Source: an uncultured Candidatus Saccharibacteria bacterium
Lineage (GTDB): Bacteria; Patescibacteriota; Minisyncoccia; Portnoybacterales; UBA2143
Reading direction: 5' to 3'
Length of the DNA stretch: 64,000 nt
Assembly (NCBI GenBank): GCA_964596615.1
Contig: CAZQUN010000004.1
Coordinates: forward strand, 432 to 64,431
This document shows positions 2,335 to 33,982 of this stretch, one piece after another. The notes beneath the pieces are model-generated. The model had not been told where the DNA came from. It was given only the letters and a program-made list of their open reading frames with translations, and did not search any database. Every line of letters begins with the position of its first letter. The first letter of the stretch is position 1. A program made the translations under genes and the position numbers.

Positions 2335-2363
2335 TTGACAGATTTTACAGAATAAAATAAGAT
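2335..2363 (+). promoter_or_regulatory. Sigma-70-like promoter upstream of rplJ (TTGACA-N17-TAAGAT)
   Basis: A consensus -35 hexamer TTGACA sits at 2335-2340, separated by 17 nt from the -10-like hexamer TAAGAT. Confidence 0.4.
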
Positions 2364-2373
2364 TTATAGAGCT

Positions 2374-2433
2374 GTAGACAATAGGTGGCTTTAGCGGAAA
2401 TCCTATCGAGGCGAGTGCCTTTTTATTGTCTAC
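2374..2433 (+). promoter_or_regulatory. Possible rplJ-rplL (L10) leader RNA structure
   Basis: A perfect 10-bp inverted repeat (GTAGACAATA ... TATTGTCTAC) encloses a 40-nt GC-richer segment in the 5' UTR of rplJ. This is the position of the autoregulatory L10 leader in many bacteria. Confidence 0.35.
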
Positions 2434-2458
2434 ATATTTGTAGGCATTTTTTAATAGC

Positions 2459-2977
2459 ATGATTACTAAAGAAAAGAAAAAAGAAATAATTCAAGATTTA
2501 ATTGATAAACTTTCCCGCCAGAAATCAGTTGTCTTTTTTGACTATACTGGCCTGAAAGTCAACCAAAGCCAGGAATTAAGAAGCAAATTAAGACAAGAAG
2601 AAATCGATTGCCAGATTAGCAAAAAGACCCTAATTGACTTGGCCTTGGAAAAAGCCGGATTAAAAGATATCAAAGTCAAAGAATTAGCTGGTCAGATTGG
2701 TTTAGTTTTTGGATACAAAGACGAAATCTTACCAGCCAAAATCCTATATGATTTTTCAAAAGAAAATAAGGACCTTAAAATTATTTCCGGTTTAATTGAT
2801 GGTCAGTTTTTAGGAAACGAAGCTGTTCTTGAATTAGCCAAATTACCTTCCAAACAAGAATTGCTTTCAAAACTGATTGGCAGCATTTCATCTCCAGTGC
2901 TCGGATTACATAATACCTTACAAGGCAACCTGTCTAAATTAATTAATATATTTAAAAACCTAAAGTCAGAGGAATAA
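2459..2977 (+). CDS. rplJ: 50S ribosomal protein L10
   Basis: 172 aa. The N-terminus KEKKKEIIQDLIDKLSRQKSVVFFDYTGLKVNQSQELRSKLR is typical of L10, and the gene is followed by rplL. Confidence 0.85.
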   Translation: MITKEKKKEIIQDLIDKLSRQKSVVFFDYTGLKVNQSQELRSKLRQEEIDCQISKKTLIDLALEKAGLKDIKVKELAGQIGLVFGYKDEILPAKILYDFSKENKDLKIISGLIDGQFLGNEAVLELAKLPSKQELLSKLIGSISSPVLGLHNTLQGNLSKLINIFKNLKSEE

Positions 2978-4132: not shown

Positions 4133-4204
4133 GGGCGTGTAGCTCAGGGGTAGAGCGTCCCGTTCACATCGGGGAAGTCTCTGGTTCAAATCCAGATACG
4201 CCCA
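4133..4204 (+). tRNA. tRNA-Val (anticodon CAC)
   Basis: Folded by hand into a cloverleaf. The acceptor GGGCGTG/TACGCCC has one G-U pair. D-arm is GCTC-AGGGGTA-GAGC, anticodon stem TCCCG/CGGGG with loop TTCACAT, T-arm TCTGG-TTCAAAT-CCAGA, discriminator A. No CCA is encoded. Confidence 0.85.
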
Positions 4205-9561: not shown

Positions 9562-9633
9562 GGCCCTATCGTCTAGTGGTTAGGACGCCAGATTCTCAAT
9601 CTGGTAACCGGGGTTCAACTCCCCGTAGGGCTG
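9562..9633 (+). tRNA. tRNA-Glu (anticodon CUC)
   Basis: Acceptor GGCCCTA/TAGGGCT, D-arm GTC-TAGTGGTTAG-GAC, anticodon stem CCAGA/TCTGG with loop TTCTCAA, T-arm CGGGG-TTCAACT-CCCCG, discriminator G. Confidence 0.8.
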
Positions 9634-17713: not shown

Positions 17714-18056
17714 CAACCACTCATTGATCAAGGAGGTCGATATGGGTATTTCAGTTAAAAGAGGACATAAGGCGGCAGTGAGGATAATCTCGCACCTTAT
17801 TTTCCTATTAACCCCTTTATTTATTTGGTGGCAGGGACAGGATTTATTTGGCTGGTCGCCATGGCTATTATACTTCCTGCAGGTCGGTCTTTGGAGCCCG
17901 TTCGTTGTTATCTATGCAGTAAAAGATTATTTCAGTTTTCCTGCCGGGGTCGCATATTATGAGTTTCATGAATGGAGAGAAATCCCAATGGAATTTTTAT
18001 TCCCTCATGTTGAGTTAGTTTTAGGCAAATTGGGGGAGGATCTATTTCCTTCCTAA
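17703..18056 (+). CDS. Hypothetical membrane protein
   Basis: 117 aa with TM helices. It sits where prp/rpmA usually follow rplU. Confidence 0.3.
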   Translation: MNLNNHSLIKEVDMGISVKRGHKAAVRIISHLIFLLTPLFIWWQGQDLFGWSPWLLYFLQVGLWSPFVVIYAVKDYFSFPAGVAYYEFHEWREIPMEFLFPHVELVLGKLGEDLFPS

Positions 18057-18641
18057 AAAGGCACTACCTAAGGTATGTTCGTCTATGTATTCAAGATCGG
18101 AGCCGGTTGATAGCCCTCGCGCCAATCGGCTCGTTTTTATTTCCAACCCCCCAAGCATTCTTTCAATATATAAAGCCGTAGTATCTCCCTCGGTTGTCGG
18201 ACTAAAAGCGAATATAATTTCCTTTATCTCTGGCTGGGATTTTTTAATTCTAGAAATTAATTGATTAATTTTCAAGTTTTCCGGGCCAATGCCATTTCCC
18301 GGAGAAATTAATCCGCCTAAAACATGATAAAGTCCATGATATTGTTTGGTTTTTTCAATCGGAATAATATTCAAAAGATTTTCAACCAAACAGAGAGTTG
18401 ATTTATCTCTTTTGCCATCAAGGCAAATTGGACAGAAATTCTTGCTTTTTTCAGTCAGGTTATAGCATTGGGGACAAAGATTAATTTCAGTTTTAAGATT
18501 TTTAACAGCCAAAGAAAAATCATCTAATTCTTTTTGATTCTGATTAAGCAAATGAAAAACCATCCGAGTCGCAGATCTCGGTCCAATTTCCGGCAATTTG
18601 GATAACTCATTGATAAGTTTTTGAACTGATTTTGGAAACAT
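18042..18641 (-). CDS. recR: Recombination protein RecR
   Basis: Has the HhH motif PGIGPRSATR, a C4 zinc finger CPQCYNLTEKSKNFCPIC and a Toprim domain. The start is trimmed to the MFPKS codon at 18641, directly after the dnaB stop; the six-frame ORF extends to 18755. Confidence 0.85.
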   Translation of the reverse strand: MFPKSVQKLINELSKLPEIGPRSATRMVFHLLNQNQKELDDFSLAVKNLKTEINLCPQCYNLTEKSKNFCPICLDGKRDKSTLCLVENLLNIIPIEKTKQYHGLYHVLGGLISPGNGIGPENLKINQLISRIKKSQPEIKEIIFAFSPTTEGDTTALYIERMLGGLEIKTSRLARGLSTGSDLEYIDEHTLGSAFLGRK

Positions 18642-18642
18642 A

Positions 18643-20013
18643 TTATTCCTCCAATCTTTTCTCCAGATTCCTGAAACTAACCTGGCTTTCATTGAAATAT
18701 AATTCAGCTCGGCCAGTTGGACCATTACGATGCTTGGCGATAATAATATCAGCAATATTTTTCCGGTCGGTATTAGGCCTTTCCTTATCCTCCCGATAGA
18801 TGAAAATCACCACATCAGCGTCCTGTTCTAAACTTCCACTTTCTCTTAAATCAGAAAGTTTGGGAATAGCCGGGGAGCGGGATTCAACAGAACGGTTGAG
18901 TTGGGAAATGGCTAAAACGGGAACTTCAAGTTCTCTGGCCAAAGATTTCAAACTTCGGGATATTTCTGTCATTTGCTGAACGGGCGAATCAAAATTATTC
19001 CTCGGCTGAATCATTTGGATGTAATCGATAATAATTAAACCAAGATTGTTTTGAGCCTGAAGTCGGCGAGCCATGGTTCTCATCTGTAAAATAGTCGGAG
19101 AAGGAGTATCATCAATATAGATTGAAGCATCCGATAATTCATCCAGCGCTCTCTGGATTTTTTCAAAATCATTATCCGGTCCTTCGCCGGATAAACGACC
19201 GGTCCGTATTCTCCAGGAATCAACTTCTGCCTGAGAACTAATTAACCGGTCAACTAATTGTTCCTTGGACATTTCAATACTAAAAACGGCAACTGGTGTT
19301 TTTTCCTTAATCGAAGTATGTCGAGCAATATTAAGAGCAAGCGAGGTTTTTCCAAGAGAAGGGCGGGCGCCTAAAATAATTAAATCGGATTTCTGAAAAC
19401 CAGAAAGATAGTTGTCAATATCAGCAAATCCGGTCGGGATACCTCTTGTGGCTTCTTCGCCCCGGTGCAACTTATCAATTCTTTCAAAAGCGCTTTCTAA
19501 AGCATCTTTAACCGGCATGAATTTCTGACTGACTGATCTTTGAGAAACACTAAATATCTTCTGTTCAGATTCATCGATCAGGGTTTCAACATCATCTGGT
19601 TCCTGATAACTTAATTGACTAATTTCATTAGAAGCTCCGATTAAATCACGAAGGGCTTTTTTGTTTTTAACAATTTTGGCGTAGTGGGTAATATGGGCGG
19701 CAGTTGGAACGGAATTAACCAGGTCAGTCAAATAGGTTGCTCCGCCAATTTCTTTTAATTTCTTTTTCTCTTCTAATCGGTTGGTTAAACTTAATAAATC
19801 AATTGGTTCATTTTTTTCATAAAGATCAACCATGGCTTGATAAATGCTGGTATGGATCCCTCGGTAGAAATCATCAGCAACAAGAATATCAGCTATTTTA
19901 ATAATAGCGTCTTTGTCCAACATCAAGGCTCCCAGAACAGATTGTTCGGCTTCAATATTCTGAGGCGGTAGTTTGCCTTCTATTTTAACTGATGGTTGTG
20001 TTTTTTCTGCCAT
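18643..20013 (-). CDS. dnaB: Replicative DNA helicase DnaB (canonical copy)
   Basis: 456 aa with Walker A GARPSLGKTS, and the conserved motifs SIEMS, IIDYIQMI, ISQLNR, LRESGSLEQDADVV and AKHRNGPTG. Confidence 0.9.
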   Translation of the reverse strand: MAEKTQPSVKIEGKLPPQNIEAEQSVLGALMLDKDAIIKIADILVADDFYRGIHTSIYQAMVDLYEKNEPIDLLSLTNRLEEKKKLKEIGGATYLTDLVNSVPTAAHITHYAKIVKNKKALRDLIGASNEISQLSYQEPDDVETLIDESEQKIFSVSQRSVSQKFMPVKDALESAFERIDKLHRGEEATRGIPTGFADIDNYLSGFQKSDLIILGARPSLGKTSLALNIARHTSIKEKTPVAVFSIEMSKEQLVDRLISSQAEVDSWRIRTGRLSGEGPDNDFEKIQRALDELSDASIYIDDTPSPTILQMRTMARRLQAQNNLGLIIIDYIQMIQPRNNFDSPVQQMTEISRSLKSLARELEVPVLAISQLNRSVESRSPAIPKLSDLRESGSLEQDADVVIFIYREDKERPNTDRKNIADIIIAKHRNGPTGRAELYFNESQVSFRNLEKRLEE

Positions 20014-20153: not shown

Positions 20154-21554
20154 TTATCTTGGGGAAATCTTCGAACCCTGTTCGGTGTCTTCTATTCTAT
20201 ACCCCTTGTCTTTAATTTCTTTTCTAATCCTATCAGATTCTTCAAAATTCTTTTCCTTCCTGGCTTTTTCTCTTTTTTCGGCCAGGTCTTTAATTTCCTG
20301 AGGAATTTCTTCTTTTTTAATCTCATCCAATTTAAGACCAAGAACTTTATCAAAATCCAAAAGAGTTGCCAGTTTATCTTGATTATCCAAATCTGATTTC
20401 AGAACTTCCTGGACAATAGTTAAGGCCAGAGGGGAATTAAAGTCATCAGATATTTTTTCAATAAATTTATCTTTGTATTCTTGGCTAACCCCACCCTTGT
20501 TATCACCCAATTCTTTTATCTGGGAAACCAAGTTATTAAAGCCTTTTTGAGCAGATTCCATGGCTTCAAAAGTAAAGTTCTGCTTGGAGCGGTAATGGGC
20601 TTGTAAAAACAGATAACGAAGGGAGAGGGGATTAAAACTCTTTTCTTTGATTTCAGACAGACCGTATCCCGTTCCTTCTGATTTAGCCATCTTCTTATTA
20701 TCAACCAATAAATGTTCATTATGGAGCCAGTAATTAACGAATTTAGCGTCATTAGCGGCTTCTGACTGAGCAATTTCATTAGTATGATGAACAGGGATAT
20801 GTTCAATCCCGCCCATATGAATATCTATGGTTTTTCCAAGGAGTTTTTTACTCATAACCGAACATTCAATATGCCAGCCGGGGAAGCCCTGGCCGTTTTC
20901 AACTAAATCAGATTTAAAAGGGGATGGCCATGTTTGAAGAGCATTTTTATGCTTTCCAGACCTGAAAAACCAGAGGGCAAAATCAGCTGGATTTTTTTTA
21001 TCCGGGTCAGTCACATCGGCCTTGCCGGCTCCTTTAATTTGTTCTTCTAAATTCTGACCGGAAAGGGCAGTATAGTTTTTGACTTTTGAGGTGTTAAAAT
21101 AGATAGCGAGGGGAGTTGAATAGGCAAATCCCTTATCAATTAATGCCTGGGTCATTTCAATCATTTCTTTAATGCATTCGGTTGCTTTTGGCTTATAATC
21201 CGGCTCTAGCATATTTAAATCTTTGGCATCTTCTTCGTAAATCTTAATATATTTCTGAGCAATTTCTTCAGGAGTTTTCTTTTCTCGTTTGGCGGCTTTT
21301 TCAATTTTATCCTCGCCTTCATCTTGATCGCTGGTCAAATGACCGACATCAGTATAGTTTCTGACATAATTAACTTGATAACCTAAATACTTTAAAGTTC
21401 TGACAATAAAATCAGCGCAGAAAAGACCCCGCATATTGCCAATATGTTGAGTCCAGTAAACAGTTGGCCCGCAATAGTAAAAGGAGACCTCATTTTCTTT
21501 AATGGATTTAAATTCTTCTTTTTGACGAGTGAGGGTATTGTAGAGCTTGAGCAT
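20154..21554 (-). CDS. cysS: Cysteinyl-tRNA synthetase
   Basis: Has the HIGH-type motif HIGNMRG, the CysRS N-terminus YYCGPTVY, a zinc-site Cys and a KMSKS-like KMAKS. Confidence 0.85.
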   Translation of the reverse strand: MLKLYNTLTRQKEEFKSIKENEVSFYYCGPTVYWTQHIGNMRGLFCADFIVRTLKYLGYQVNYVRNYTDVGHLTSDQDEGEDKIEKAAKREKKTPEEIAQKYIKIYEEDAKDLNMLEPDYKPKATECIKEMIEMTQALIDKGFAYSTPLAIYFNTSKVKNYTALSGQNLEEQIKGAGKADVTDPDKKNPADFALWFFRSGKHKNALQTWPSPFKSDLVENGQGFPGWHIECSVMSKKLLGKTIDIHMGGIEHIPVHHTNEIAQSEAANDAKFVNYWLHNEHLLVDNKKMAKSEGTGYGLSEIKEKSFNPLSLRYLFLQAHYRSKQNFTFEAMESAQKGFNNLVSQIKELGDNKGGVSQEYKDKFIEKISDDFNSPLALTIVQEVLKSDLDNQDKLATLLDFDKVLGLKLDEIKKEEIPQEIKDLAEKREKARKEKNFEESDRIRKEIKDKGYRIEDTEQGSKISPR

Positions 21555-28786: not shown

Positions 28787-28860
28787 GGGGGTATAGCTCA
28801 GTGGTAGAGCAGAGGCCTTTTAAGCCTTTGATGGGGGTTCGATTCCCTCTACCCCTACCA
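28787..28860 (+). tRNA. tRNA-Lys (anticodon UUU), CCA encoded
   Basis: Acceptor GGGGGTA/TACCCCT, D-arm GCTC-AGTGGTA-GAGC, anticodon stem GAGGC/GCCTT with loop CTTTTAA, T-arm GGGGG-TTCGATT-CCCTC, then ACCA. A -10-like TATTAT lies immediately upstream. Confidence 0.85.
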
Positions 28861-28924: not shown

Positions 28925-30289
28925 CTATTCAGTTTCTCCCTCCTCCCAAGAGAGATATTCCCCCCAGAAAGTAAGGGGTATATTGCCAGGCGTCCCTCCT
29001 TTGCCGACAATAATCTCGGCATCTCTTTCGGGTTTACCTTCTTCTTCAATCTTTTTTGGTTCGTAAGCATTTGGTCGGTAGAGCAAGAGGATTTTATTGC
29101 TTAACTCTTCGGCTGCTTTACTGAATAAATCAGAAGTTTTGGGGCGCTTATCTTCTCTGTCTTCTAGTTTTCGATTGAGCTGGCTTGAAATAATGACCGG
29201 TATTTTTATCTGATAGCAGAAGGGCTTGATTTTTTCAATGATGAAATCAGCTTGTTCTAGGGGGTGCTTAAATTCTTTGCCAGGCCAAAAAAGTTCTTGT
29301 AAATTTTCAATAATCAGCAATCCAGGGCCCTGATTAAGTTTGTCTATTTTTTCTAGGGCATTTATTATCTCTATCTGGAGGGCCGGCACAGCAATCCTTT
29401 GTTTAATTACAATGCTGTGAATTGGCGCGTCATTGATCTGTTGATGGCATCGATCCATCATTTCCAATTCATCTTTTTCTGTTATTCTGCCTCCCCCTAT
29501 CTTATTAAGGGGGATTTTACATCTTTGGGCATCCAGACGACGGTAGATTATCGGCATTACCATCTGTGCCCCGCAATAAACAACCGGACTACCTTCATCA
29601 ATAGCCGTATGAGACAGAAACTCAAGGACTAGGGCTGTTTTTCCCATTCCTGTTCTGCCGCCGACAATTGTTAGCTCATAAGGCATAAATCCCCCAATTG
29701 CGCGATTAAGCGATTCAAAAGGCGTCTCTTTGCTAAAAGAAAAGTAGTCAAAAAGTTCTTCAGTAGAGAGCTCCAGCTTGTTGGCGCCACTTCCTTTTGC
29801 CGCTTTTTTCATTATTTCCGAGGGCATCTCAATGACTTTGGCAACCAGTTCATCTACCCTGACACCAGGGGTAAAGGCAGTTCTAGCTAATTCATTGGTT
29901 TTCTCTAAGACCACTCTCTTTACCGCGTCTCCTTTGATAATCTTGGCGTGATGAGCGACATTTTCCGTTGCCGGCGTTCCGTCGTGGAGTATGACAAGAT
30001 AACTGGCTCCACCAACACTTTCGAGTTCGCCTTTCTTTTTGAGTTGATTGGTCAGAGTAAGAAGGTCAATCGGCGTTTCCTCGTTAGTCAGATCAATCAT
30101 GGCAGCAAAAATTTTTTGATGGGCGGGCTTGTAGAAATCTTCGGCCTCTAGGATTTGCCAGGCCGTAAGAAATTTTTTGTTCTCCTGTAAGATTCTCCCA
30201 ATGACTGATCCTTCAGCTTCAGGACTTTGGGGTGGCAGAGAGAACTGGGGAAAATCTTTGGCTGTCTTATCTTTCGCTTTTTCTCTCAT
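28925..30289 (-). CDS. Divergent DnaB-family replicative helicase paralog, translationally coupled to the upstream reverse transcriptase
   Basis: 454 aa with a DnaB N-terminal domain (EAEGSVIGRIL ... IDLLTLTNQL), Walker A GGRTGMGKTA, Walker B-like LLIIENLQ, ISSQLNR and a KGGTPG loop. The start overlaps the RT stop by 23 nt, and a GGAGG RBS lies inside the RT 3' end. Confidence 0.75.
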   Translation of the reverse strand: MREKAKDKTAKDFPQFSLPPQSPEAEGSVIGRILQENKKFLTAWQILEAEDFYKPAHQKIFAAMIDLTNEETPIDLLTLTNQLKKKGELESVGGASYLVILHDGTPATENVAHHAKIIKGDAVKRVVLEKTNELARTAFTPGVRVDELVAKVIEMPSEIMKKAAKGSGANKLELSTEELFDYFSFSKETPFESLNRAIGGFMPYELTIVGGRTGMGKTALVLEFLSHTAIDEGSPVVYCGAQMVMPIIYRRLDAQRCKIPLNKIGGGRITEKDELEMMDRCHQQINDAPIHSIVIKQRIAVPALQIEIINALEKIDKLNQGPGLLIIENLQELFWPGKEFKHPLEQADFIIEKIKPFCYQIKIPVIISSQLNRKLEDREDKRPKTSDLFSKAAEELSNKILLLYRPNAYEPKKIEEEGKPERDAEIIVGKGGTPGNIPLTFWGEYLSWEEGETE

Positions 30290-31334
30290 TTTCTGCCTCC
30301 TTTATCTTTTCTCGGTATAAAATCCAGTACTCTCTTACCCAGCCGGGCCAGTGTTGTTCTTGGCCATAGATTTGCCGAATGTACATAGCAATGCCGATAA
30401 CATATTTTTTGGGATAGGCGTCGTCATATTTCCAAGCCATAAAGAAAATTCGGCGATAGGCATTCTTTTTCCGATGGTTGATATGAATTTTCTGATGTTT
30501 CTTACCAACAATCGTCAGCCCGAGCATATGAGGGGTGGTTTTCCCCAGATTATCTTTTGTTTTCTCTGGCTTAACGGAAAAGCCAGATTTGGTCGGGATT
30601 GCCAGTAATTCTTCTTTGATTTCAGGTGAAATTATTTCCTTTGAGGCGAAGTTGAAATCGTCGGCGTAGACAAACCATTTTATATTGTGTGTTTGGCAAA
30701 TCCGGTCCATCTCACAACACATGGGCTCGTAAACAAGATTTAGCAAAGCCGGGCTGCACGACGCTCCTTGAGGCAGGCGACGCTGTTCATTATAATGATA
30801 GGTTACCAACCAGGATAAAGGATCAATTAGGGCCTTATTAATCCCTAATTTTTCAAGGGATTGTTTTACCATTTCCTTTGTAATACTGGGAAAAGCATCG
30901 GCTATATCAAAGCTGAAATAATGAACGTTTCCCAAAAGTGTCTGTGTTGCTTTAAGAGTATTTCTTTTTTTAACAAACCCATATGCATTTTGATGGGCGG
31001 GCCTAAGTTCAACCAATGTTTTTCCGATTGCTCTGAGCGCTTTTTGGACTATCGGATGCGGAGCAAGGATTTTTCTTGGCTTTTTTCCTTTCCGCAAAGT
31101 AAATCCTCTGAAGCCATGAGAAAATGTTTCTTGGACTGATTTGCCTTTAACCATAATTTCGTCCTCGAATTCTACTCTGCCTATTATCTTCCATGCCTTT
31201 CTCAAGACCTTTTTCGTAGTTTTTAGTTTCTCTGCTAGTGCTTTCAGTGCCCAGGAAAACTGGACATCAAGAGAAACATCTTCCATTGACCGAAACTCAT
31301 ATTTTTCCAGCGTTTCTGGTTTTTCTGAATACAT
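30267..31334 (-). CDS. Reverse transcriptase (RT motifs 1, 2, 4 and 5 present; 355 aa, no maturase/endonuclease domain)
   Basis: Motif 1 RKILAPHP, motif 2 FDIADAFPSI, motif 4 LPQGASCSPALLNL (QGxxxSP type) and motif 5 FVYADDF are present. Motifs 6/7 read KPEKTK ... MLGLTIVG. A GGAGG RBS lies 7 nt upstream of the ATG. Confidence 0.8.
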   Translation of the reverse strand: MYSEKPETLEKYEFRSMEDVSLDVQFSWALKALAEKLKTTKKVLRKAWKIIGRVEFEDEIMVKGKSVQETFSHGFRGFTLRKGKKPRKILAPHPIVQKALRAIGKTLVELRPAHQNAYGFVKKRNTLKATQTLLGNVHYFSFDIADAFPSITKEMVKQSLEKLGINKALIDPLSWLVTYHYNEQRRLPQGASCSPALLNLVYEPMCCEMDRICQTHNIKWFVYADDFNFASKEIISPEIKEELLAIPTKSGFSVKPEKTKDNLGKTTPHMLGLTIVGKKHQKIHINHRKKNAYRRIFFMAWKYDDAYPKKYVIGIAMYIRQIYGQEQHWPGWVREYWILYREKIKEAENERKSER

Positions 31335-31382
31335 TTTAGCCTCCTATGTTATCCTTAAGGGTTATAAGTTTTTAAAGAATTT

Positions 31383-31707
31383 GCCCCGCGCCAGGTTTGT
31401 CTTCACTAGCGCGAGGACTTTCAGGCAGTTGGGTGATATCAGGACGGCTTTTCCCTTCGCTTTATCAACCTCAAGCCGGGCAGGAAAGGTCGAGGAGCGA
31501 GGGGTGCCGAGGAGAGGAGAGGATTCGTCCGGGTTCCGGCGGAATAAAGTATCTATCAAACCGGAGGGGTCCGGGGTGTCCCCGGGCTCTCCTTGCTCTC
31601 ATGTTCTCCGCTGCCTGAGCTCAGAAAGCGGTTTAAGACCTATTTCGAAACATAAGATATTTCCGAAACGAACCTTGTGAGAGCCCAAGATTCTTCGGTC
31701 TTGTTTT
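31383..31707. ncRNA. GC-rich structured element (candidate RT-associated ncRNA or independent structured RNA), strand unresolved
   Basis: About 320 nt is far more GC-rich than its surroundings. It contains a 13-bp imperfect hairpin (31563-31592), a purine tract GAGGAGAGGAGAGGA complementary to a downstream CTCTCCTT/CTCTC tract, a 10-bp palindrome CTGAGCTCAG, and a plus-strand hairpin plus T4 at its 3' edge. No credible long ORF overlaps it. Confidence 0.5.
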
Positions 31708-31815
31708 ATCCCATTCGCCTGTTTGATTATTTCTAACACAAAAGAGATTTTTTCGCAAGAAAGTCAATTAATAGTGTTTATCCACCTTATTTATGCTAGA
31801 ATATTGGATAGGAAA

Positions 31816-32262
31816 ATGTATCATATAGCGATAATGAGGAAATCCTGGGGTCTCTTGCCCAAGATTTTAACCAAAGAAAAGACAATTGAATCACGCTGGT
31901 ATATGAATAAATATTCTCCTTGGGACAGGATTAAAAAAGGGGATATTGTTTATTTTGAGAATTCTGGTGAACCGGTTAGTATTAAAACAGAAGTTTCAAA
32001 GATTATTCAGTATTCGGATTTAACGCCAGTCAAAGCAAAACAAATTCTTCAAAAATATGGCGCTAAAGATGGCCTGGGTATTAATGAAATTGACAAATAT
32101 TATCAGATGTTTAAAGGTAAAAAATATTGCTTGTTAATTTTTCTTAAAAACCCGCAGGGAACTAAATCTTTTGATATTGATAAGACCGGATTTGGAGCGA
32201 TGGCGGCCTGGATAGTAGTTGATAATATAAAAAGAGTTAAGAGAAATCTTTTTACAGTTTAA
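31816..32262 (+). CDS. ASCH (PUA-like) domain protein
   Basis: Carries the ASCH signature ILTKEKTIESRW (GxKxxExR-like). The start is trimmed to MYHIAIMRK at 31816. Confidence 0.5.
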   Translation: MYHIAIMRKSWGLLPKILTKEKTIESRWYMNKYSPWDRIKKGDIVYFENSGEPVSIKTEVSKIIQYSDLTPVKAKQILQKYGAKDGLGINEIDKYYQMFKGKKYCLLIFLKNPQGTKSFDIDKTGFGAMAAWIVVDNIKRVKRNLFTV

Positions 32263-32308: not shown

Positions 32309-33982
32309 ATGGATCCGCAAACACACATCGACCCGGGACAACAAATAAATAACTTCCAACCAGAACAAAATCCTAAAAGATTAAATTTTCCTTTCTGGGT
32401 TTGGGTTGTAGTAGTAACCGCTATTTTAGGCCTAGGCGGTTATTTTATTTATCAACATTTCTTTTCTGAAACGATAACAGTCCTTGATTCGACAGACCAA
32501 TGGCAAACTTACCACAATGAAGAATTAGGGTTTAGCTTTAAATATCCAAGGGATTATGGAGAAATGGTGTTTTCAATAAACTCCGGGGAAACAGGAGAAA
32601 TGTTTTATGGGAATTTCTCTAAAAATCCTGATATCCAATTTGGAGGAATAACATACGATTATACTGCTGGTATGGGAGGACAATTCATAGGTACACAAGG
32701 ATATACACAAGATAATGATAAATATTATTTTAACTTTGTTGCTGATGAAAAAATAGAAGTAACTCCGTCGAGATTTATTCAAATAAATGAAGGGGCAGAT
32801 GAAGCCCTAGTCATCGAAGATCAAGATATGGGTTTGCTAATTAATCCTAGCGGGAAGGGAGCTTTAATTAACCTGAAAGATGATAGATTTTCTGGAATTG
32901 GCTTTATTTATTACAATATTCCTCAGGATGAAACCTATCTTTTTGATGACATCATTTCTAGCTTTAAGTTTATTGAGCCCACCGATACATCTAATTGGCA
33001 AACATATCGTAACGAGGAATATCGATTTGAGGTTTTAATGCCTGGGGGTTGGTATACCAGCGAAGAATATTATCAAAATATTGACCAGCAAATGATTAGG
33101 TTTTCGAATTATCCGTGGGGGTCATTTGAAAAATCGGAAACCCCGGAGGATTTTCTTGCTTTCTTCATTTCAACTTATCCAAAATACAAAGAAGATGACT
33201 ACGAAAAAATTAAAGAAATAGAAGAAGAAATGAAAGAGTTTTCAAACGAAAAATTTGAATACAGCATTGAAAATAAATGGCTGATAAATCTTTATGTTAT
33301 TTCTGAAAGAACTTCTCAAAAAGATAATATTACCTGGGATGTTATCTTGCCTTACGCCAAAGCGTTTTTAACGGGCGAAAATTATAAATATTATTTCTAT
33401 CCTTCTTCGCCGGTTCCAACACTAGACAAAGGACAAGAAAAGGAATTAGATATTTTAAGAGGGATGTTAAAGTCATTTAAATTTATTAAACTAAGCAATC
33501 TGTCTGATGAAGAAATATATCAGAATAATGAATATAAAATTAGATTTGAAAAACCGTTTCTTTTTGGCAGACAGGGCGATGTCAGAGAAAAGGAGAATAA
33601 AATATTTGTTTGCCTGGACCCTTCAACAGAAGATACTTCTTCCTGTCAGTATGTAGAAATTTTTGAAAAGAGCCCGGGACAGACTTTGAAAGAAGCCATA
33701 GAAGAACAGTTTCTTAAAAGTTATCCTTCTGATAAGTGCTGGTTTGAAGAAATAAGAAGGGAGAATAATCCAAAAGGATATCAATACGCGACTATAAGTT
33801 ATCCTACCCCTTGGTATGATAATCGACAGTATTGTCCCTCTTATAGCGCGGCAAATGGTGTGAGTTATTTTATGATGGACCCACGCTATCCCGACCGTTT
33901 TGTTTACTTTAGCATCGGACAGTACTATATTGGGACTAGGAACAGAGAATCCTGGCAGGATACATTTGAATTTATTGATTAA
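32309..33982 (+). CDS. Hypothetical membrane-anchored extracellular protein with internal WQTYxNEE repeats
   Basis: 557 aa with an N-terminal TM helix and repeated W-Q-T-Y-x-N-E-E-x-x-F motifs. Rich in Tyr/Asn. Confidence 0.4.
   Translation: MDPQTHIDPGQQINNFQPEQNPKRLNFPFWVWVVVVTAILGLGGYFIYQHFFSETITVLDSTDQWQTYHNEELGFSFKYPRDYGEMVFSINSGETGEMFYGNFSKNPDIQFGGITYDYTAGMGGQFIGTQGYTQDNDKYYFNFVADEKIEVTPSRFIQINEGADEALVIEDQDMGLLINPSGKGALINLKDDRFSGIGFIYYNIPQDETYLFDDIISSFKFIEPTDTSNWQTYRNEEYRFEVLMPGGWYTSEEYYQNIDQQMIRFSNYPWGSFEKSETPEDFLAFFISTYPKYKEDDYEKIKEIEEEMKEFSNEKFEYSIENKWLINLYVISERTSQKDNITWDVILPYAKAFLTGENYKYYFYPSSPVPTLDKGQEKELDILRGMLKSFKFIKLSNLSDEEIYQNNEYKIRFEKPFLFGRQGDVREKENKIFVCLDPSTEDTSSCQYVEIFEKSPGQTLKEAIEEQFLKSYPSDKCWFEEIRRENNPKGYQYATISYPTPWYDNRQYCPSYSAANGVSYFMMDPRYPDRFVYFSIGQYYIGTRNRESWQDTFEFID

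What the first reader, a model, noticed from the sequence alone, without database searches (positions are those of the whole stretch)
31383..31707. About 320-nt GC-rich structured element between the RT gene and a divergent ASCH gene; folding evidence slightly favours the plus strand
Seen in sequence: GC content jumps sharply relative to all flanking DNA, and none of the overlapping ORFs (31141..31680, 31397..31618, 31362..31559) has a credible coding signature. The hairpin GGAGGGGTCCGGGG-TGT-CCCCGGGCTCTCC (31563-31592) forms 11 contiguous pairs only if read on the plus strand, because three of those pairs are G-U wobbles that become C-A on the minus strand. A second stem (CCUC..GCC / GGU..GAGG around 31467-31495) also uses a plus-strand G-U. 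A purine tract GAGGAGAGGAGAGGA (31509-31523) can pair with the downstream pyrimidine tract CTCTCCTTGCTCTC, giving a long-range helix. A weak hairpin plus T4 (31686-31707) could terminate a plus-strand transcript, and a perfect 10-bp palindrome CTGAGCTCAG (31615-31624) could be a protein-binding site.

So the element may be (a) the template or scaffold ncRNA of the minus-strand RT, as in retron/DRT systems, or (b) an independent plus-strand structured RNA that merely neighbours the RT. I could not match it by eye to the conserved RNase P P4, tmRNA T-arm or SRP domain IV sequences.
Basis: seen in the sequence. Interest (0 to 1): 0.72.

Follow-up and report, generated by a model that had tools for sequence, protein, structure and literature searches.

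The report
Retron-like RNA with RT and pseudo-DnaB
The GC-rich stretch is a conserved, roughly 340-nt structured RNA on the minus strand that leads an operon for a retron-like reverse transcriptase and a catalytically crippled copy of the DnaB replication helicase, a three-part module found mostly in uncultivated "candidate phyla" bacteria and barely described so far.

Summary
The GC-rich element is real, but the strand call is wrong: it is a minus-strand RNA, co-oriented with the RT gene.

- **Folding:** z = -4.1 on the minus strand against -1.3 to -1.7 on the plus strand.
- **Wobble pairs:** G·U pairs outnumber A·C by 59 to 13 on the RT strand.
- **Promoter:** a conserved -35/extended -10 promoter sits just 5' of the RNA.
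- **Covariance model:** one hit per locus, always on the RT strand (window 68 bits, opposite strand 16 bits).

Twenty related loci (Patescibacteria, plus MAGs labelled Aminicenantes and Bdellovibrionales) carry the same RNA. It has:
- a closing helix P1 (a1/a2);
- a three-way junction P2;
- an almost invariant hairpin P3 and a hairpin P4;
- a variable 80-215-nt region.

All helices covary.

The RT is closest to retron RTs (best solved-structure match Ec86) but fits none of the 13 described types.

In 25 of 25 loci the next gene is a DnaB paralogue. It keeps Walker A but has the arginine finger deleted and other catalytic residues changed. The window has a normal dnaB 9 kb away.

Best reading: this is the msr/msd-type template and scaffold RNA of a new retron-like RT/pseudo-DnaB system. 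Reverse transcription and function remain inferred. Rfam has no match. One 2026 preprint reports an RT-DnaB_C link in another lineage.

The parts
31753..31758 (-). -35-like hexamer TTGCGA. It is TTGACA in 10 of the 19 related loci: 8 found by the scan, plus L018 and L009 read by eye.
   Evidence: The spacing is 17 nt to the -10-like element. The simple consensus scan did not call it.
31729..31740 (-). Extended -10-like element TGTGTTAGAAAT (family consensus TGnTAnnAAT). It ends about 7 nt before the first base of helix P1, so transcription is predicted to start near 31722.
   Evidence: The motif keeps its position and sequence across loci. The start site is inferred, not measured.
31384..31721 (-). 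Body of the structured ncRNA, from P1 through hairpin P6.
   Evidence: Minus-strand MFE -130.4 kcal/mol, z = -4.07. A fold constrained to the comparative helices gives -130.7 against -131.7 unconstrained.
31710..31721 (-). 5' strand of closing helix P1 (a1): CAGGCG (31721-31716), AA, UGGG (31713-31710). G31712 is the only invariant G in this strand.
31422..31435 (-). Conserved CA (31435-31434), then the 3' strand of P1 (a2): CCCA (31433-31430), AC, UGCCUG (31427-31422).
   Evidence: Own-partner duplex energy -15.7 against -8.0 kcal/mol for mismatched partners; 0 of 20000 permutations as good. The three inner pairs form in 19 of 19 loci, with G-C to C-G swaps in 6.
31636..31701 (-). Three-way junction. 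P2: 31701-31697 with 31640-31636. P2a: 31693-31686 with 31677-31670 (loop 31685-31678). P2b: 31668-31661 with 31650-31643.
   Evidence: All 19 pairs show compensatory changes. 88.8% of cells are paired. Covariation score 0.725 against 0.33 in shuffles (0 of 500), and 0.33 or less when the partners are slid.
31608..31631 (-). Hairpin P3, CCGCU-U-UCUG-AGCU-CAGG-C-AGCGG.
   Evidence: Its conserved U·G pairs would be C·A on the other strand.
31566..31585 (-). Hairpin P4, CCGGGG-ACA-CCCCGG (31585-31571), followed by the conserved ACCCC (31570-31566).
   Evidence: Its second pair occurs as C-G, U-A and A-U in different loci. The covariance model of P3-P4 hits 31566-31635 on the minus strand at 68.1 bits, E = 3e-16.
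31586..31607 (-). Purine-rich joiner between P3 and P4. It may form a pseudoknot with the P2a loop (GGGCUCUC 31686-31679 with GAGAGCCC 31591-31584).
   Evidence: Inverted repeat I9. Own versus cross pairing is only modest, -8.3 against -6.9 kcal/mol, p = 0.008. Tentative.
31436..31565 (-). Variable region, not alignable between loci. This is the candidate template (msd-like) part. In the window it ends with a 62-nt hairpin at about 31444-31505.
   Evidence: Folds. Length 82-217 nt as folded, including 4 anchor bases, with several hairpins in the other loci. The template role is inferred.
31384..31416 (-). Hairpin P6, 3' of a2 (CCUCGCGCUAG ... CUGGCGCGGGG). It is present in 9 of 19 loci.
   Evidence: 10 of 13 pairs show compensatory changes. 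Function unknown.
31368..31383 (-). Conserved motif CAAAUUCUUUAAAAAC (family core UUCUUUAAnAAUU), lying between a2 or P6 and the RT start.
   Evidence: Unexplained.
30267..31334 (-). Retron-like reverse transcriptase, 355 aa. Shine-Dalgarno sequence AGGAGG at 31345-31340.
   Evidence: RVT_1, E = 4e-20. Best PADLOC hits are retron RT models. The family profile best matches the Ec86 retron RT, E = 1.8e-22.
28925..30289 (-). DnaB-like paralogue, 454 aa. It overlaps the RT stop by 23 nt. Walker A is kept, but the arginine finger is deleted and other catalytic residues are changed.

Best explanation
The element is the non-coding RNA of a three-part retron-like module: ncRNA, then RT, then a DnaB-like protein, all on the minus strand.

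1. It is transcribed from its own promoter as the 5' part of the operon transcript.
2. Its two ends pair (a1/a2, helix P1).
3. The conserved 5' domain (three-way junction P2, hairpins P3 and P4) most likely serves as the RT-recognition scaffold, like a retron msr.
4. The variable 3' region between ACCCC and the conserved CA next to a2 most likely serves as the template, like a retron msd. It would be copied into single-stranded DNA starting beside the inner end of P1.
5. The RT, the RNA and its DNA product are proposed to act together with the DnaB-like protein. That protein can probably still bind nucleotide and assemble like DnaB, but it lacks the residues needed to hydrolyse ATP as a helicase. 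The likely role is a phage-sensing or replication-blocking system.

Shown here: the RNA, its strand, its structure, and its invariable linkage to the two genes. Inferred: reverse transcription, priming, complex formation and biological role.
For: **Strand and transcription**
- Fold z-scores.
- G·U versus A·C, 59 to 13.
- Conserved promoter ending just before a1.
- Covariance-model hits only on the RT strand, one per locus, 20 of 20.

**Structure**
- P1: own versus cross partners, 0 of 20000 permutations as good.
- P2 junction: 19 of 19 pairs compensatory.
- P3 and P4.
- P6.
- The comparative model is within 1 kcal/mol of the MFE.

**RT**
- Retron RT models are the best hits in PADLOC, NCBIfam and the PDB.
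- The catalytic YADD motif is intact and invariant in the alignment.

**Module**
- The DnaB-like gene is immediately downstream in 25 of 25 non-redundant loci.
- RT and DnaB-like divergence correlate, r = 0.84.
- The DnaB-like proteins form a discrete clade at 469-639 bits; ordinary DnaB scores 371 or less.
- A bona fide dnaB is present elsewhere in the window.
- Catalytic-site table.

**Layout**
- It matches the published definition of a retron transcript: terminal inverted repeats, then hairpins, then a template region (PMC7736814).
Against: - No conserved unpaired G follows a1. The only invariant G (31712) is base-paired.
- The retron RT signatures are degenerate: NAXXH reads KAxxL, and VTG reads (L/M)LG.
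- The RT scores only 122 bits on the best retron-type model. True members of a type score 290-400 bits on their own model.
- The putative template region is multi-hairpin rather than one long stem.
- The RNA is about twice the size of classical retron RNAs (from my own knowledge).
- Flanking genes are housekeeping genes, not defence islands.
- There are no transcript, cDNA or phenotype data.
Confidence: 0.68

Rival explanations
1. The RNA is a template for the RT, but the product is not a classical 2'-5' branched msDNA. It could be primed in another way (de novo, protein-primed, or from an RNA 3' end), or copied repeatedly as in the DRT2 or DRT9 systems.
For: - No conserved unpaired branching G follows a1.
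- The NAXXH and VTG signatures are degenerate.
- The RT lies outside all 13 retron types.
- The RNA is large and multi-domain, comparable in size to DRT ncRNAs (from my own knowledge).
Against: - The RT is closest to retron RTs, not to the UG/DRT groups: all of the best 25 PADLOC hits are retron models.
- The a1/a2 closing helix with a conserved CA beside it is the retron arrangement.
- I found no repeated motif at the two template ends that holds across all loci (by inspection).
Confidence: 0.15
2. The RNA is a structured 5' leader or protein-binding scaffold. It would control expression of the RT and DnaB-like genes, or assemble with them, without being reverse transcribed.
For: - It sits between the promoter and the RT start.
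- Hairpin P6 and the conserved UUCUUUAAnAAUU motif lie just before the ribosome-binding site.
- A closing helix is not unique to retrons.
Against: - An intact RT that is always linked to one RNA has no obvious substrate otherwise.
- The 80-215-nt variable region inside a conserved frame is typical of a template cassette rather than a regulatory leader.
- No Rfam cis-regulatory family matches.
Confidence: 0.13
3. It is an independent plus-strand small RNA that merely neighbours the RT.
For: The plus strand can also form many helices, because helices are largely strand-symmetric.
Against: - Plus-strand z-scores are only -1.3 to -1.7.
- P3's conserved U·G pairs become C·A on the plus strand.
- The best plus-strand covariance-model score is 16 bits, against 68 on the minus strand.
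- The conserved promoter faces the RT.
- No terminator-like site was found.
Confidence: 0.02
4. It is a decayed coding remnant, a DGR template repeat, or a chance GC-rich patch.
For: ORFs of 65-179 aa overlap the region.
Against: - These ORFs have no family hits.
- No conserved ORF exists in the region across loci.
- Compensatory changes occur in every helix.
- No second copy or variable-repeat partner exists in the window.
- The GC peak recurs upstream of the RT in the related loci.
Confidence: 0.01

Closest known systems
Classical retrons (msr-msd RNA + retron RT + effector; for example Retron-Eco1/Ec86)
   Same: - The RT is most similar to retron RTs.
- The ncRNA lies directly upstream on the same strand.
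- The ends of the RNA pair (a1/a2), with hairpins and then a variable region inside.
- One accessory gene shares the operon.
   Different: - The RT fits none of the 13 types: 122 bits against 290-400 for true members.
- It forms an isolated clade: 458-532 bits, then a gap to 164 bits.
- NAXXH and VTG are degenerate.
- The RNA is about 340 nt, with a three-way junction plus two further conserved hairpins.
- There is no single long msd stem.
- There is no conserved unpaired branching G.
- The partner is a DnaB paralogue rather than a nuclease, NDT, TIR, protease or similar effector.
TXI_noncan_h: type XI-like retron RTs with DnaB_C proteins (bioRxiv 10.64898/2026.05.14.725207)
   Same: - A protease-less retron-like RT with a DnaB_C-domain protein, most often immediately downstream.
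- A candidate ncRNA upstream of the RT.
- Function unknown.
   Different: - That lineage is type XI-like and lives in Bacillota and Bacteroidota. Its RNA is a compact 23-bp double stem-loop 22-104 bp upstream of the RT.
- This RT scores only 83 bits on the type XI models against 122 on III-A.
- No Patescibacteria entry appears in that paper's text or tables.
- The RNA here has about 60 conserved pairs over some 340 nt.
- I could not compare sequences directly.
DRT2 / DRT9 (UG-class RT with an upstream structured ncRNA)
   Same: An RT gene is preceded by a conserved structured ncRNA of a few hundred nucleotides that serves as its template (from my own knowledge).
   Different: - The RT here belongs with retron RTs, not the UG/Abi groups.
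- A second conserved protein is present.
- No evidence for repetitive copying was found.
Replicative helicase DnaB
   Same: - Full-length two-domain architecture: DnaB N-terminal and DnaB_C domains.
- It aligns end to end with E. coli DnaB, E = 1.6e-49.
- Walker A is kept.
   Different: - It scores 213 bits on TIGR00665 against a cutoff of 385. The window's true dnaB scores 556.
- Q441-R442 (the arginine finger) is deleted in 21 of 21 proteins.
- D343E and Y344N occur in all 21.
- E262 is kept in only 4 of 21.
- The DNA-loop residue R403 is never kept.

Membership tests
Retron (Mestre et al. 2020 definition, PMC7736814) | The RT groups with retron RTs rather than with group II intron, DGR or UG/Abi RTs. 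| tested here: met
   All of the best 25 PADLOC hits are retron RT models. NCBIfam retron St85 scores 111 bits against 47 for group II. The PDB profile search is led by retron RTs Ec86, Ec83 and Kva2.
Retron (Mestre et al. 2020 definition, PMC7736814) | The RT belongs to one of the 13 described types. | tested here: not met
   The best score is 122 bits (RT_III-A). Real III-A, II-A and XIII members score 290-400 bits on their own models. The family is isolated: 532 and 458 bits, then 164.
Retron (Mestre et al. 2020 definition, PMC7736814) | NAXXH motif (region X) and VTG triplet (region Y) in the RT. | tested here: not met
   Aligned to Ec86, NATPH corresponds to KAxxL (only the A is kept) and VTG to (L/M)LG (only the G is kept, and it is invariant). 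Definition.
Retron (Mestre et al. 2020 definition, PMC7736814) | A contiguous ncRNA on the RT strand whose terminal inverted repeats (a1/a2) hybridize. | tested here: met
   strand.
Retron (Mestre et al. 2020 definition, PMC7736814) | An msr with one to three hairpins and an msd with one long stable stem-loop. | tested here: inconclusive
   The conserved 5' domain has four hairpins (P2a, P2b, P3, P4). The variable region forms several hairpins. The window has a 62-nt hairpin just before a2. The msr/msd boundary is unknown.
Retron (Mestre et al. 2020 definition, PMC7736814) | A conserved branching G at the end of a1. | tested here: inconclusive
   No conserved unpaired G follows a1. The only invariant G (31712) pairs with a nearly invariant C (31431; U in one locus) two pairs from the inner end of P1.
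Retron (Mestre et al. 2020 definition, PMC7736814) | Production of msDNA linked 2'-5' to the RNA. | not testable with these tools
   Needs experiment.
Retron (Mestre et al. 2020 definition, PMC7736814) | A specifically associated accessory (effector) gene. | tested here: met
   A DnaB-like gene lies immediately downstream in 25 of 25 loci. No other gene is conserved.
TXI_noncan_h (type XI-like RT + DnaB_C) | The RT falls in the type XI-like clade. | tested here: not met
   It scores 83 bits on the RT-Protease_XI models, below III-A, IX, II-A, X and VI. That study required at least 160 bits.
TXI_noncan_h (type XI-like RT + DnaB_C) | A DnaB_C protein adjacent to the RT, mostly at +1. | tested here: met
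TXI_noncan_h (type XI-like RT + DnaB_C) | A compact double stem-loop ncRNA (23 bp), 22-104 bp upstream of the RT. | tested here: not met
   The RNA here spans about 340 nt with six covarying helices, from 50 to 390 nt upstream of the RT.
Replicative DNA helicase DnaB (TIGR00665) | Score above the curated cutoff, with intact catalytic Glu, Walker B Asp and arginine finger. | tested here: not met
   213.5 bits against a cutoff of 385; residue table. The window's true dnaB passes.
Any Rfam 15 family | A covariance-model match at the gathering score. | tested here: not met
   There is no gathering-level hit in the region. At E up to 10 there are only chance-level snoRNA and miRNA hits of 18.5 bits or less.
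Diversity-generating retroelement | A template repeat with a near-identical variable repeat in a target gene. | tested here: not met
   No second copy of any part of the element exists in the 64-kb window.

The most novel reading that the evidence does not exclude
A previously undescribed retron-like system whose only protein partner is an ATPase-dead DnaB paralogue. The RT-made single-stranded DNA and RNA would hold or load this pseudo-helicase. The complex would act as a decoy or sensor for phage proteins that target the replicative helicase (loaders, primases, inhibitors), or as a dominant-negative brake on the replisome. That would link reverse transcription directly to replication-fork proteins, in bacteria with very small genomes and few known defences.
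Probability: 0.3. Interest if true: 0.85.

Novelty: new variant of a known kind. Interest (0 to 1): 0.68.

Why it matters
- It adds a well-defined RNA family with strong covariation and about 20 invariant or nearly invariant nucleotides. It also adds an RT clade that current retron classifications and Rfam do not cover.
- It shows that a retron-like RT has been stably coupled to a catalytically degenerate copy of the replicative helicase. This holds across MAGs assigned to distant lineages (Patescibacteria, Aminicenantes, Bdellovibrionales).
- If the RNA is reverse transcribed, it offers a new scaffold for making DNA in cells. It would also be a test case for retron priming without the canonical branching-G context.
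- If the pseudo-DnaB is the effector or sensor, it opens a direct route to asking how reverse transcriptase systems interface with the replisome.

Tried and rejected
- **Rfam:** searched on both strands, at gathering level over the whole window and at E up to 10 over the region. Nothing credible.
- **Plus-strand RNA:** rejected.
- **Coding remnant:** rejected.
- **DGR template repeat:** rejected.
- **Housekeeping DnaB:** rejected, because a canonical dnaB lies at 18643-20013.
- **Mobile-element or tRNA-integration context:** tRNA adjacency is not conserved. There are no close relatives in the phage or plasmid collections; the best is about 30% identity. Flanking genes are housekeeping genes.
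- **Pseudoknot between the P2a loop and the joiner:** only weakly supported, p = 0.008.
- **Simple promoter and terminator scan:** it called nothing in the window. The promoter argument rests on conservation.
- **Naming the organism:** cluster look-ups gave no name.
- **A correction to my own working:** I first mis-assigned the DnaB arginine finger to DLRESG and corrected it to R442 in KQRNG.

Full report
**1. What is in the sequence**

GC content rises to 0.585 and 0.535 at 31400-31699, against 0.31-0.42 in the flanks. The region lies between two genes. On the minus strand is a 355-aa reverse transcriptase (30267-31334; RVT_1, E = 4e-20). On the plus strand is a divergent ORF. None of the ORFs overlapping the region has a family match. 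No ORF of 80 aa or more is conserved at this position in related loci. Rfam 15 gives nothing at gathering level, and only chance-level hits of 18.5 bits or less at E up to 10.

**2. Which strand**

Taken as RNA, the minus strand (the RT strand) folds far better than shuffled controls:
- z = -4.08 for 31360-31720;
- z = -4.07 for 31384-31722;
- 0 of 100 shuffles fold as well.

The plus strand does not stand out (z = -1.29 and -1.67; 11 and 6 of 100 shuffles as good).

**3. Relatives**

The RT has about 70 homologue clusters at 41-61% identity, then a sharp drop to 28%. In an exhaustive scan of 1.84 billion representative proteins the family scores 532 and 458 bits. The next protein scores 164 bits.

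I fetched 34 loci. They come from Saccharibacteria, Moraniibacteriota, Parcubacteria and other Patescibacteria MAGs, plus MAGs labelled Aminicenantes and Bdellovibrionales. Nearly all with enough upstream DNA show a GC peak 100-300 nt upstream of the RT. BLASTN detects nucleotide similarity of the upstream regions to the window, down to E = 1e-20.

**4. Promoter**

About 16 of 19 loci carry a -35 (TTGACA or a close variant), 17-18 nt of spacer, and an extended -10-like TGnTAnnAAT. This count combines the scan with my reading of the printed sequences. The motif ends a few nucleotides before the first base of the RNA's closing helix.

In the window the elements are TTGCGA (31758-31753) and TGTGTTAGAAAT (31740-31729). 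That predicts a transcription start near 31722. The generic consensus scan did not call this site, so the argument rests on conservation.

**5. Structure (window coordinates, minus strand)**

| Element | Coordinates | Support |
|---|---|---|
| P1 (a1/a2) | 31721-31716 + 31713-31710 with 31433-31430 + 31427-31422 | Top-scoring long-range helix in 10 of 19 loci in an unbiased search; located in all 19 with position limits and manual curation. Own-partner duplex energy -15.7 against -8.0 kcal/mol for swapped partners; 0 of 20000 permutations as good. Inner three pairs form in 19 of 19 loci, with G-C to C-G swaps in 6. G31712 is invariant; its partner C31431 is U in one locus. |
| P2 three-way junction | 31701-31636 | 19 pairs, all with compensatory changes. 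88.8% paired. Covariation score 0.725 against 0.33 in shuffles (0 of 500), and 0.33 or less when the partners are slid. |
| P3 | 31631-31608 | Holds most of the family's invariant bases and two conserved U·G pairs.
| P4 + ACCCC | 31585-31571, 31570-31566 | The second pair occurs as C-G, U-A and A-U in different loci. |
| Variable region | 31565-31436 | 82-217 nt as folded (including 4 anchor bases) in other loci; not alignable; several hairpins. |
| P6 | 31416-31384 | Present in 9 loci; 10 of 13 pairs compensatory. |
| Motif UUCUUUAAnAAUU | within 31383-31368 | Conserved before the RT's ribosome-binding site; unexplained. |

Further points:
- Across supported helices there are 59 G·U pairs on the RT strand against 13 A·C.
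- A fold of the window RNA constrained to these helices is within 1 kcal/mol of the free MFE.
- A covariance model of P3-P4 finds exactly one strong hit per locus (46-81 bits), always upstream of the RT and on its strand. This includes two loci not used to build the model.
- The window hit is 31566-31635 on the minus strand at 68 bits. The best opposite-strand score is 16 bits.
- A pseudoknot between the P2a loop and the P3-P4 joiner is possible but weakly supported (p = 0.008).

**6. The proteins**

*The RT.*
- It is closest to retron RTs. All of the best 25 PADLOC hits are retron models, the best being RT_III-A at 122 bits.
- NCBIfam retron St85 scores 111 bits against 47 for group II intron RTs.
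- The family profile's best solved relatives are retron RTs Ec86, Ec83 and Kva2.
- Genuine members of known types score 290-400 bits on their own model, so this RT fits no described type.
- The retron signatures are degenerate: NAXXH reads KAxxL and VTG reads (L/M)LG. The catalytic YADD motif is intact and invariant in the alignment (definitions from PMC7736814).

*The DnaB-like protein.*
- Immediately downstream of the RT, overlapping or abutting it, is a DnaB-like gene in 25 of 25 non-redundant loci that have downstream DNA. No other gene is conserved.
- RT and DnaB-like divergence correlate (r = 0.84). The RT is the better conserved of the two (51% against 36% mean identity).
- It is not the housekeeping helicase. 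The window has a bona fide dnaB at 18643-20013 (TIGR00665 556 bits, cutoff 385), only 29% identical to the RT-linked copy (213 bits).
- The RT-linked proteins form a discrete clade (469-639 bits, then 371 or less for ordinary DnaB).

Catalytic residues against E. coli DnaB, from the alignment of 21 RT-linked proteins:

| E. coli DnaB feature | State in the RT-linked proteins |
|---|---|
| Walker A GK(T/S) | kept in all 21 |
| Walker B D343 / Y344 | changed to E / N in all 21 (IENLQ) |
| Q441-R442 (arginine finger) | deleted in all 21 |
| R403 (ssDNA-binding loop) | never kept |
| E262 (catalytic Glu) | kept in 4 of 21 |

The roles of these residues come from my knowledge of the Bst and E. coli DnaB structures.

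**7. Context**

Flanking genes differ between loci and are housekeeping genes: EF-Tu, EF-P, GluRS, FtsH, signal peptidase and others. tRNA adjacency, as in the window (tRNA-Lys 28787-28860), is not conserved. No close relative exists in the phage or plasmid collections. No repeat of the element occurs elsewhere in the window.

**8. Interpretation**

The anatomy matches the general plan of a retron (PMC7736814):
- promoter, then an RNA closed by terminal inverted repeats;
- a conserved hairpin domain followed by a variable cassette;
- then a retron-like RT, then one dedicated accessory gene.

I therefore read the element as the msr/msd-type RNA of a new retron-like family. The 5' domain would be the RT-recognition scaffold. 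The variable region would be the template, copied from the conserved CA next to a2.

Steps that are inferred, not shown:
- transcription start and end;
- reverse transcription and its priming;
- any complex with the DnaB-like protein;
- the biological role.

Points that do not fit a textbook retron:
- no conserved unpaired branching G;
- degenerate RT signatures;
- an RNA about twice the usual size;
- a multi-hairpin template region;
- housekeeping rather than defence-island neighbourhoods.

For these reasons I keep two rivals open: a non-branched cDNA mechanism (0.15) and a non-templating leader or scaffold (0.13).

**9. What is known**

- Mestre et al. 2020 do not mention a helicase partner.
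- Literature searches for retron or RT with DnaB found one relevant item. It is a May 2026 preprint describing 29 type XI-like RT loci in Bacillota and Bacteroidota, 20 of which have DnaB_C proteins. Those loci have a compact 23-bp upstream RNA, and their function is unknown.
- That survey required at least 160 bits on type-specific models and lists no Patescibacteria.
- The present family differs in RT lineage, host range and RNA architecture.
- Whether the two DnaB associations share an origin is untested.

**10. Verdict**

This is a real, strongly supported structured RNA on the minus strand, belonging to a conserved ncRNA, RT and pseudo-DnaB module. It is a new variant of the retron kind, and its mechanism remains to be shown experimentally.

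Noticed in passing
window 18643-20013 (-), with recR 18042-18755 and cysS 20154-21554: A canonical replicative dnaB (TIGR00665 556 bits, all catalytic motifs intact) lies only 9 kb from the RT-linked DnaB paralogue. The genome therefore carries two DnaB-family genes close together.
   Followed up: yes
window 28787-28860 (+): tRNA-Lys(UUU) abuts the 3' end of the DnaB-like gene. tRNA adjacency is not seen at the other loci, so it is probably not an integration signature.
   Followed up: partly
window 31368-31383 (-); same position in L001-L028: The motif UUCUUU(A/G)A(A/C)AAUU is conserved between a2 (or hairpin P6) and the RT start in nearly all loci. In L004 and L025 it contains TTGACA. It could be an internal promoter -35, an RT-binding site or a translation signal.
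   Followed up: no
window 31816-32262 (+) and 32309-33982 (+): The divergent 'ASCH' ORF reaches only a sub-threshold Pfam score (E = 0.047, 14.8 bits against a cutoff of 21.2). The following 557-aa ORF has no Pfam, NCBIfam or PADLOC match. Neither is conserved beside the module in other loci.
   Followed up: partly
L004:477-594 and L008 upstream region: L004 carries an insertion of about 50 nt (an extra hairpin) between P3 and P4. L008 has a much enlarged P2 domain. The RNA tolerates insertions at defined points.
   Followed up: no
L009:3974-5099: The RT homologue is split into two ORFs (172 and 212 aa). This is a frameshift, a pseudogene or an assembly error, in a Saccharibacteria MAG that still keeps the RNA and the DnaB-like gene.
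   Followed up: no
C-termini of the DnaB-like proteins (window 28925-28960 region): The RT-linked DnaB-like proteins end in a conserved motif with an invariant Trp, W-(E/R)-(E/D), together with K-GG in place of KQRNG. These features are absent from E. coli DnaB and from the window's own dnaB in the alignment, and could serve as a family signature.
   Followed up: partly
window 2354-2462 (+): A ribosomal protein L10 leader (Rfam RF00557) matches just at the gathering score (44.6 bits against 44). Two further tRNAs lie at 4133-4204 and 9562-9633.
   Followed up: no
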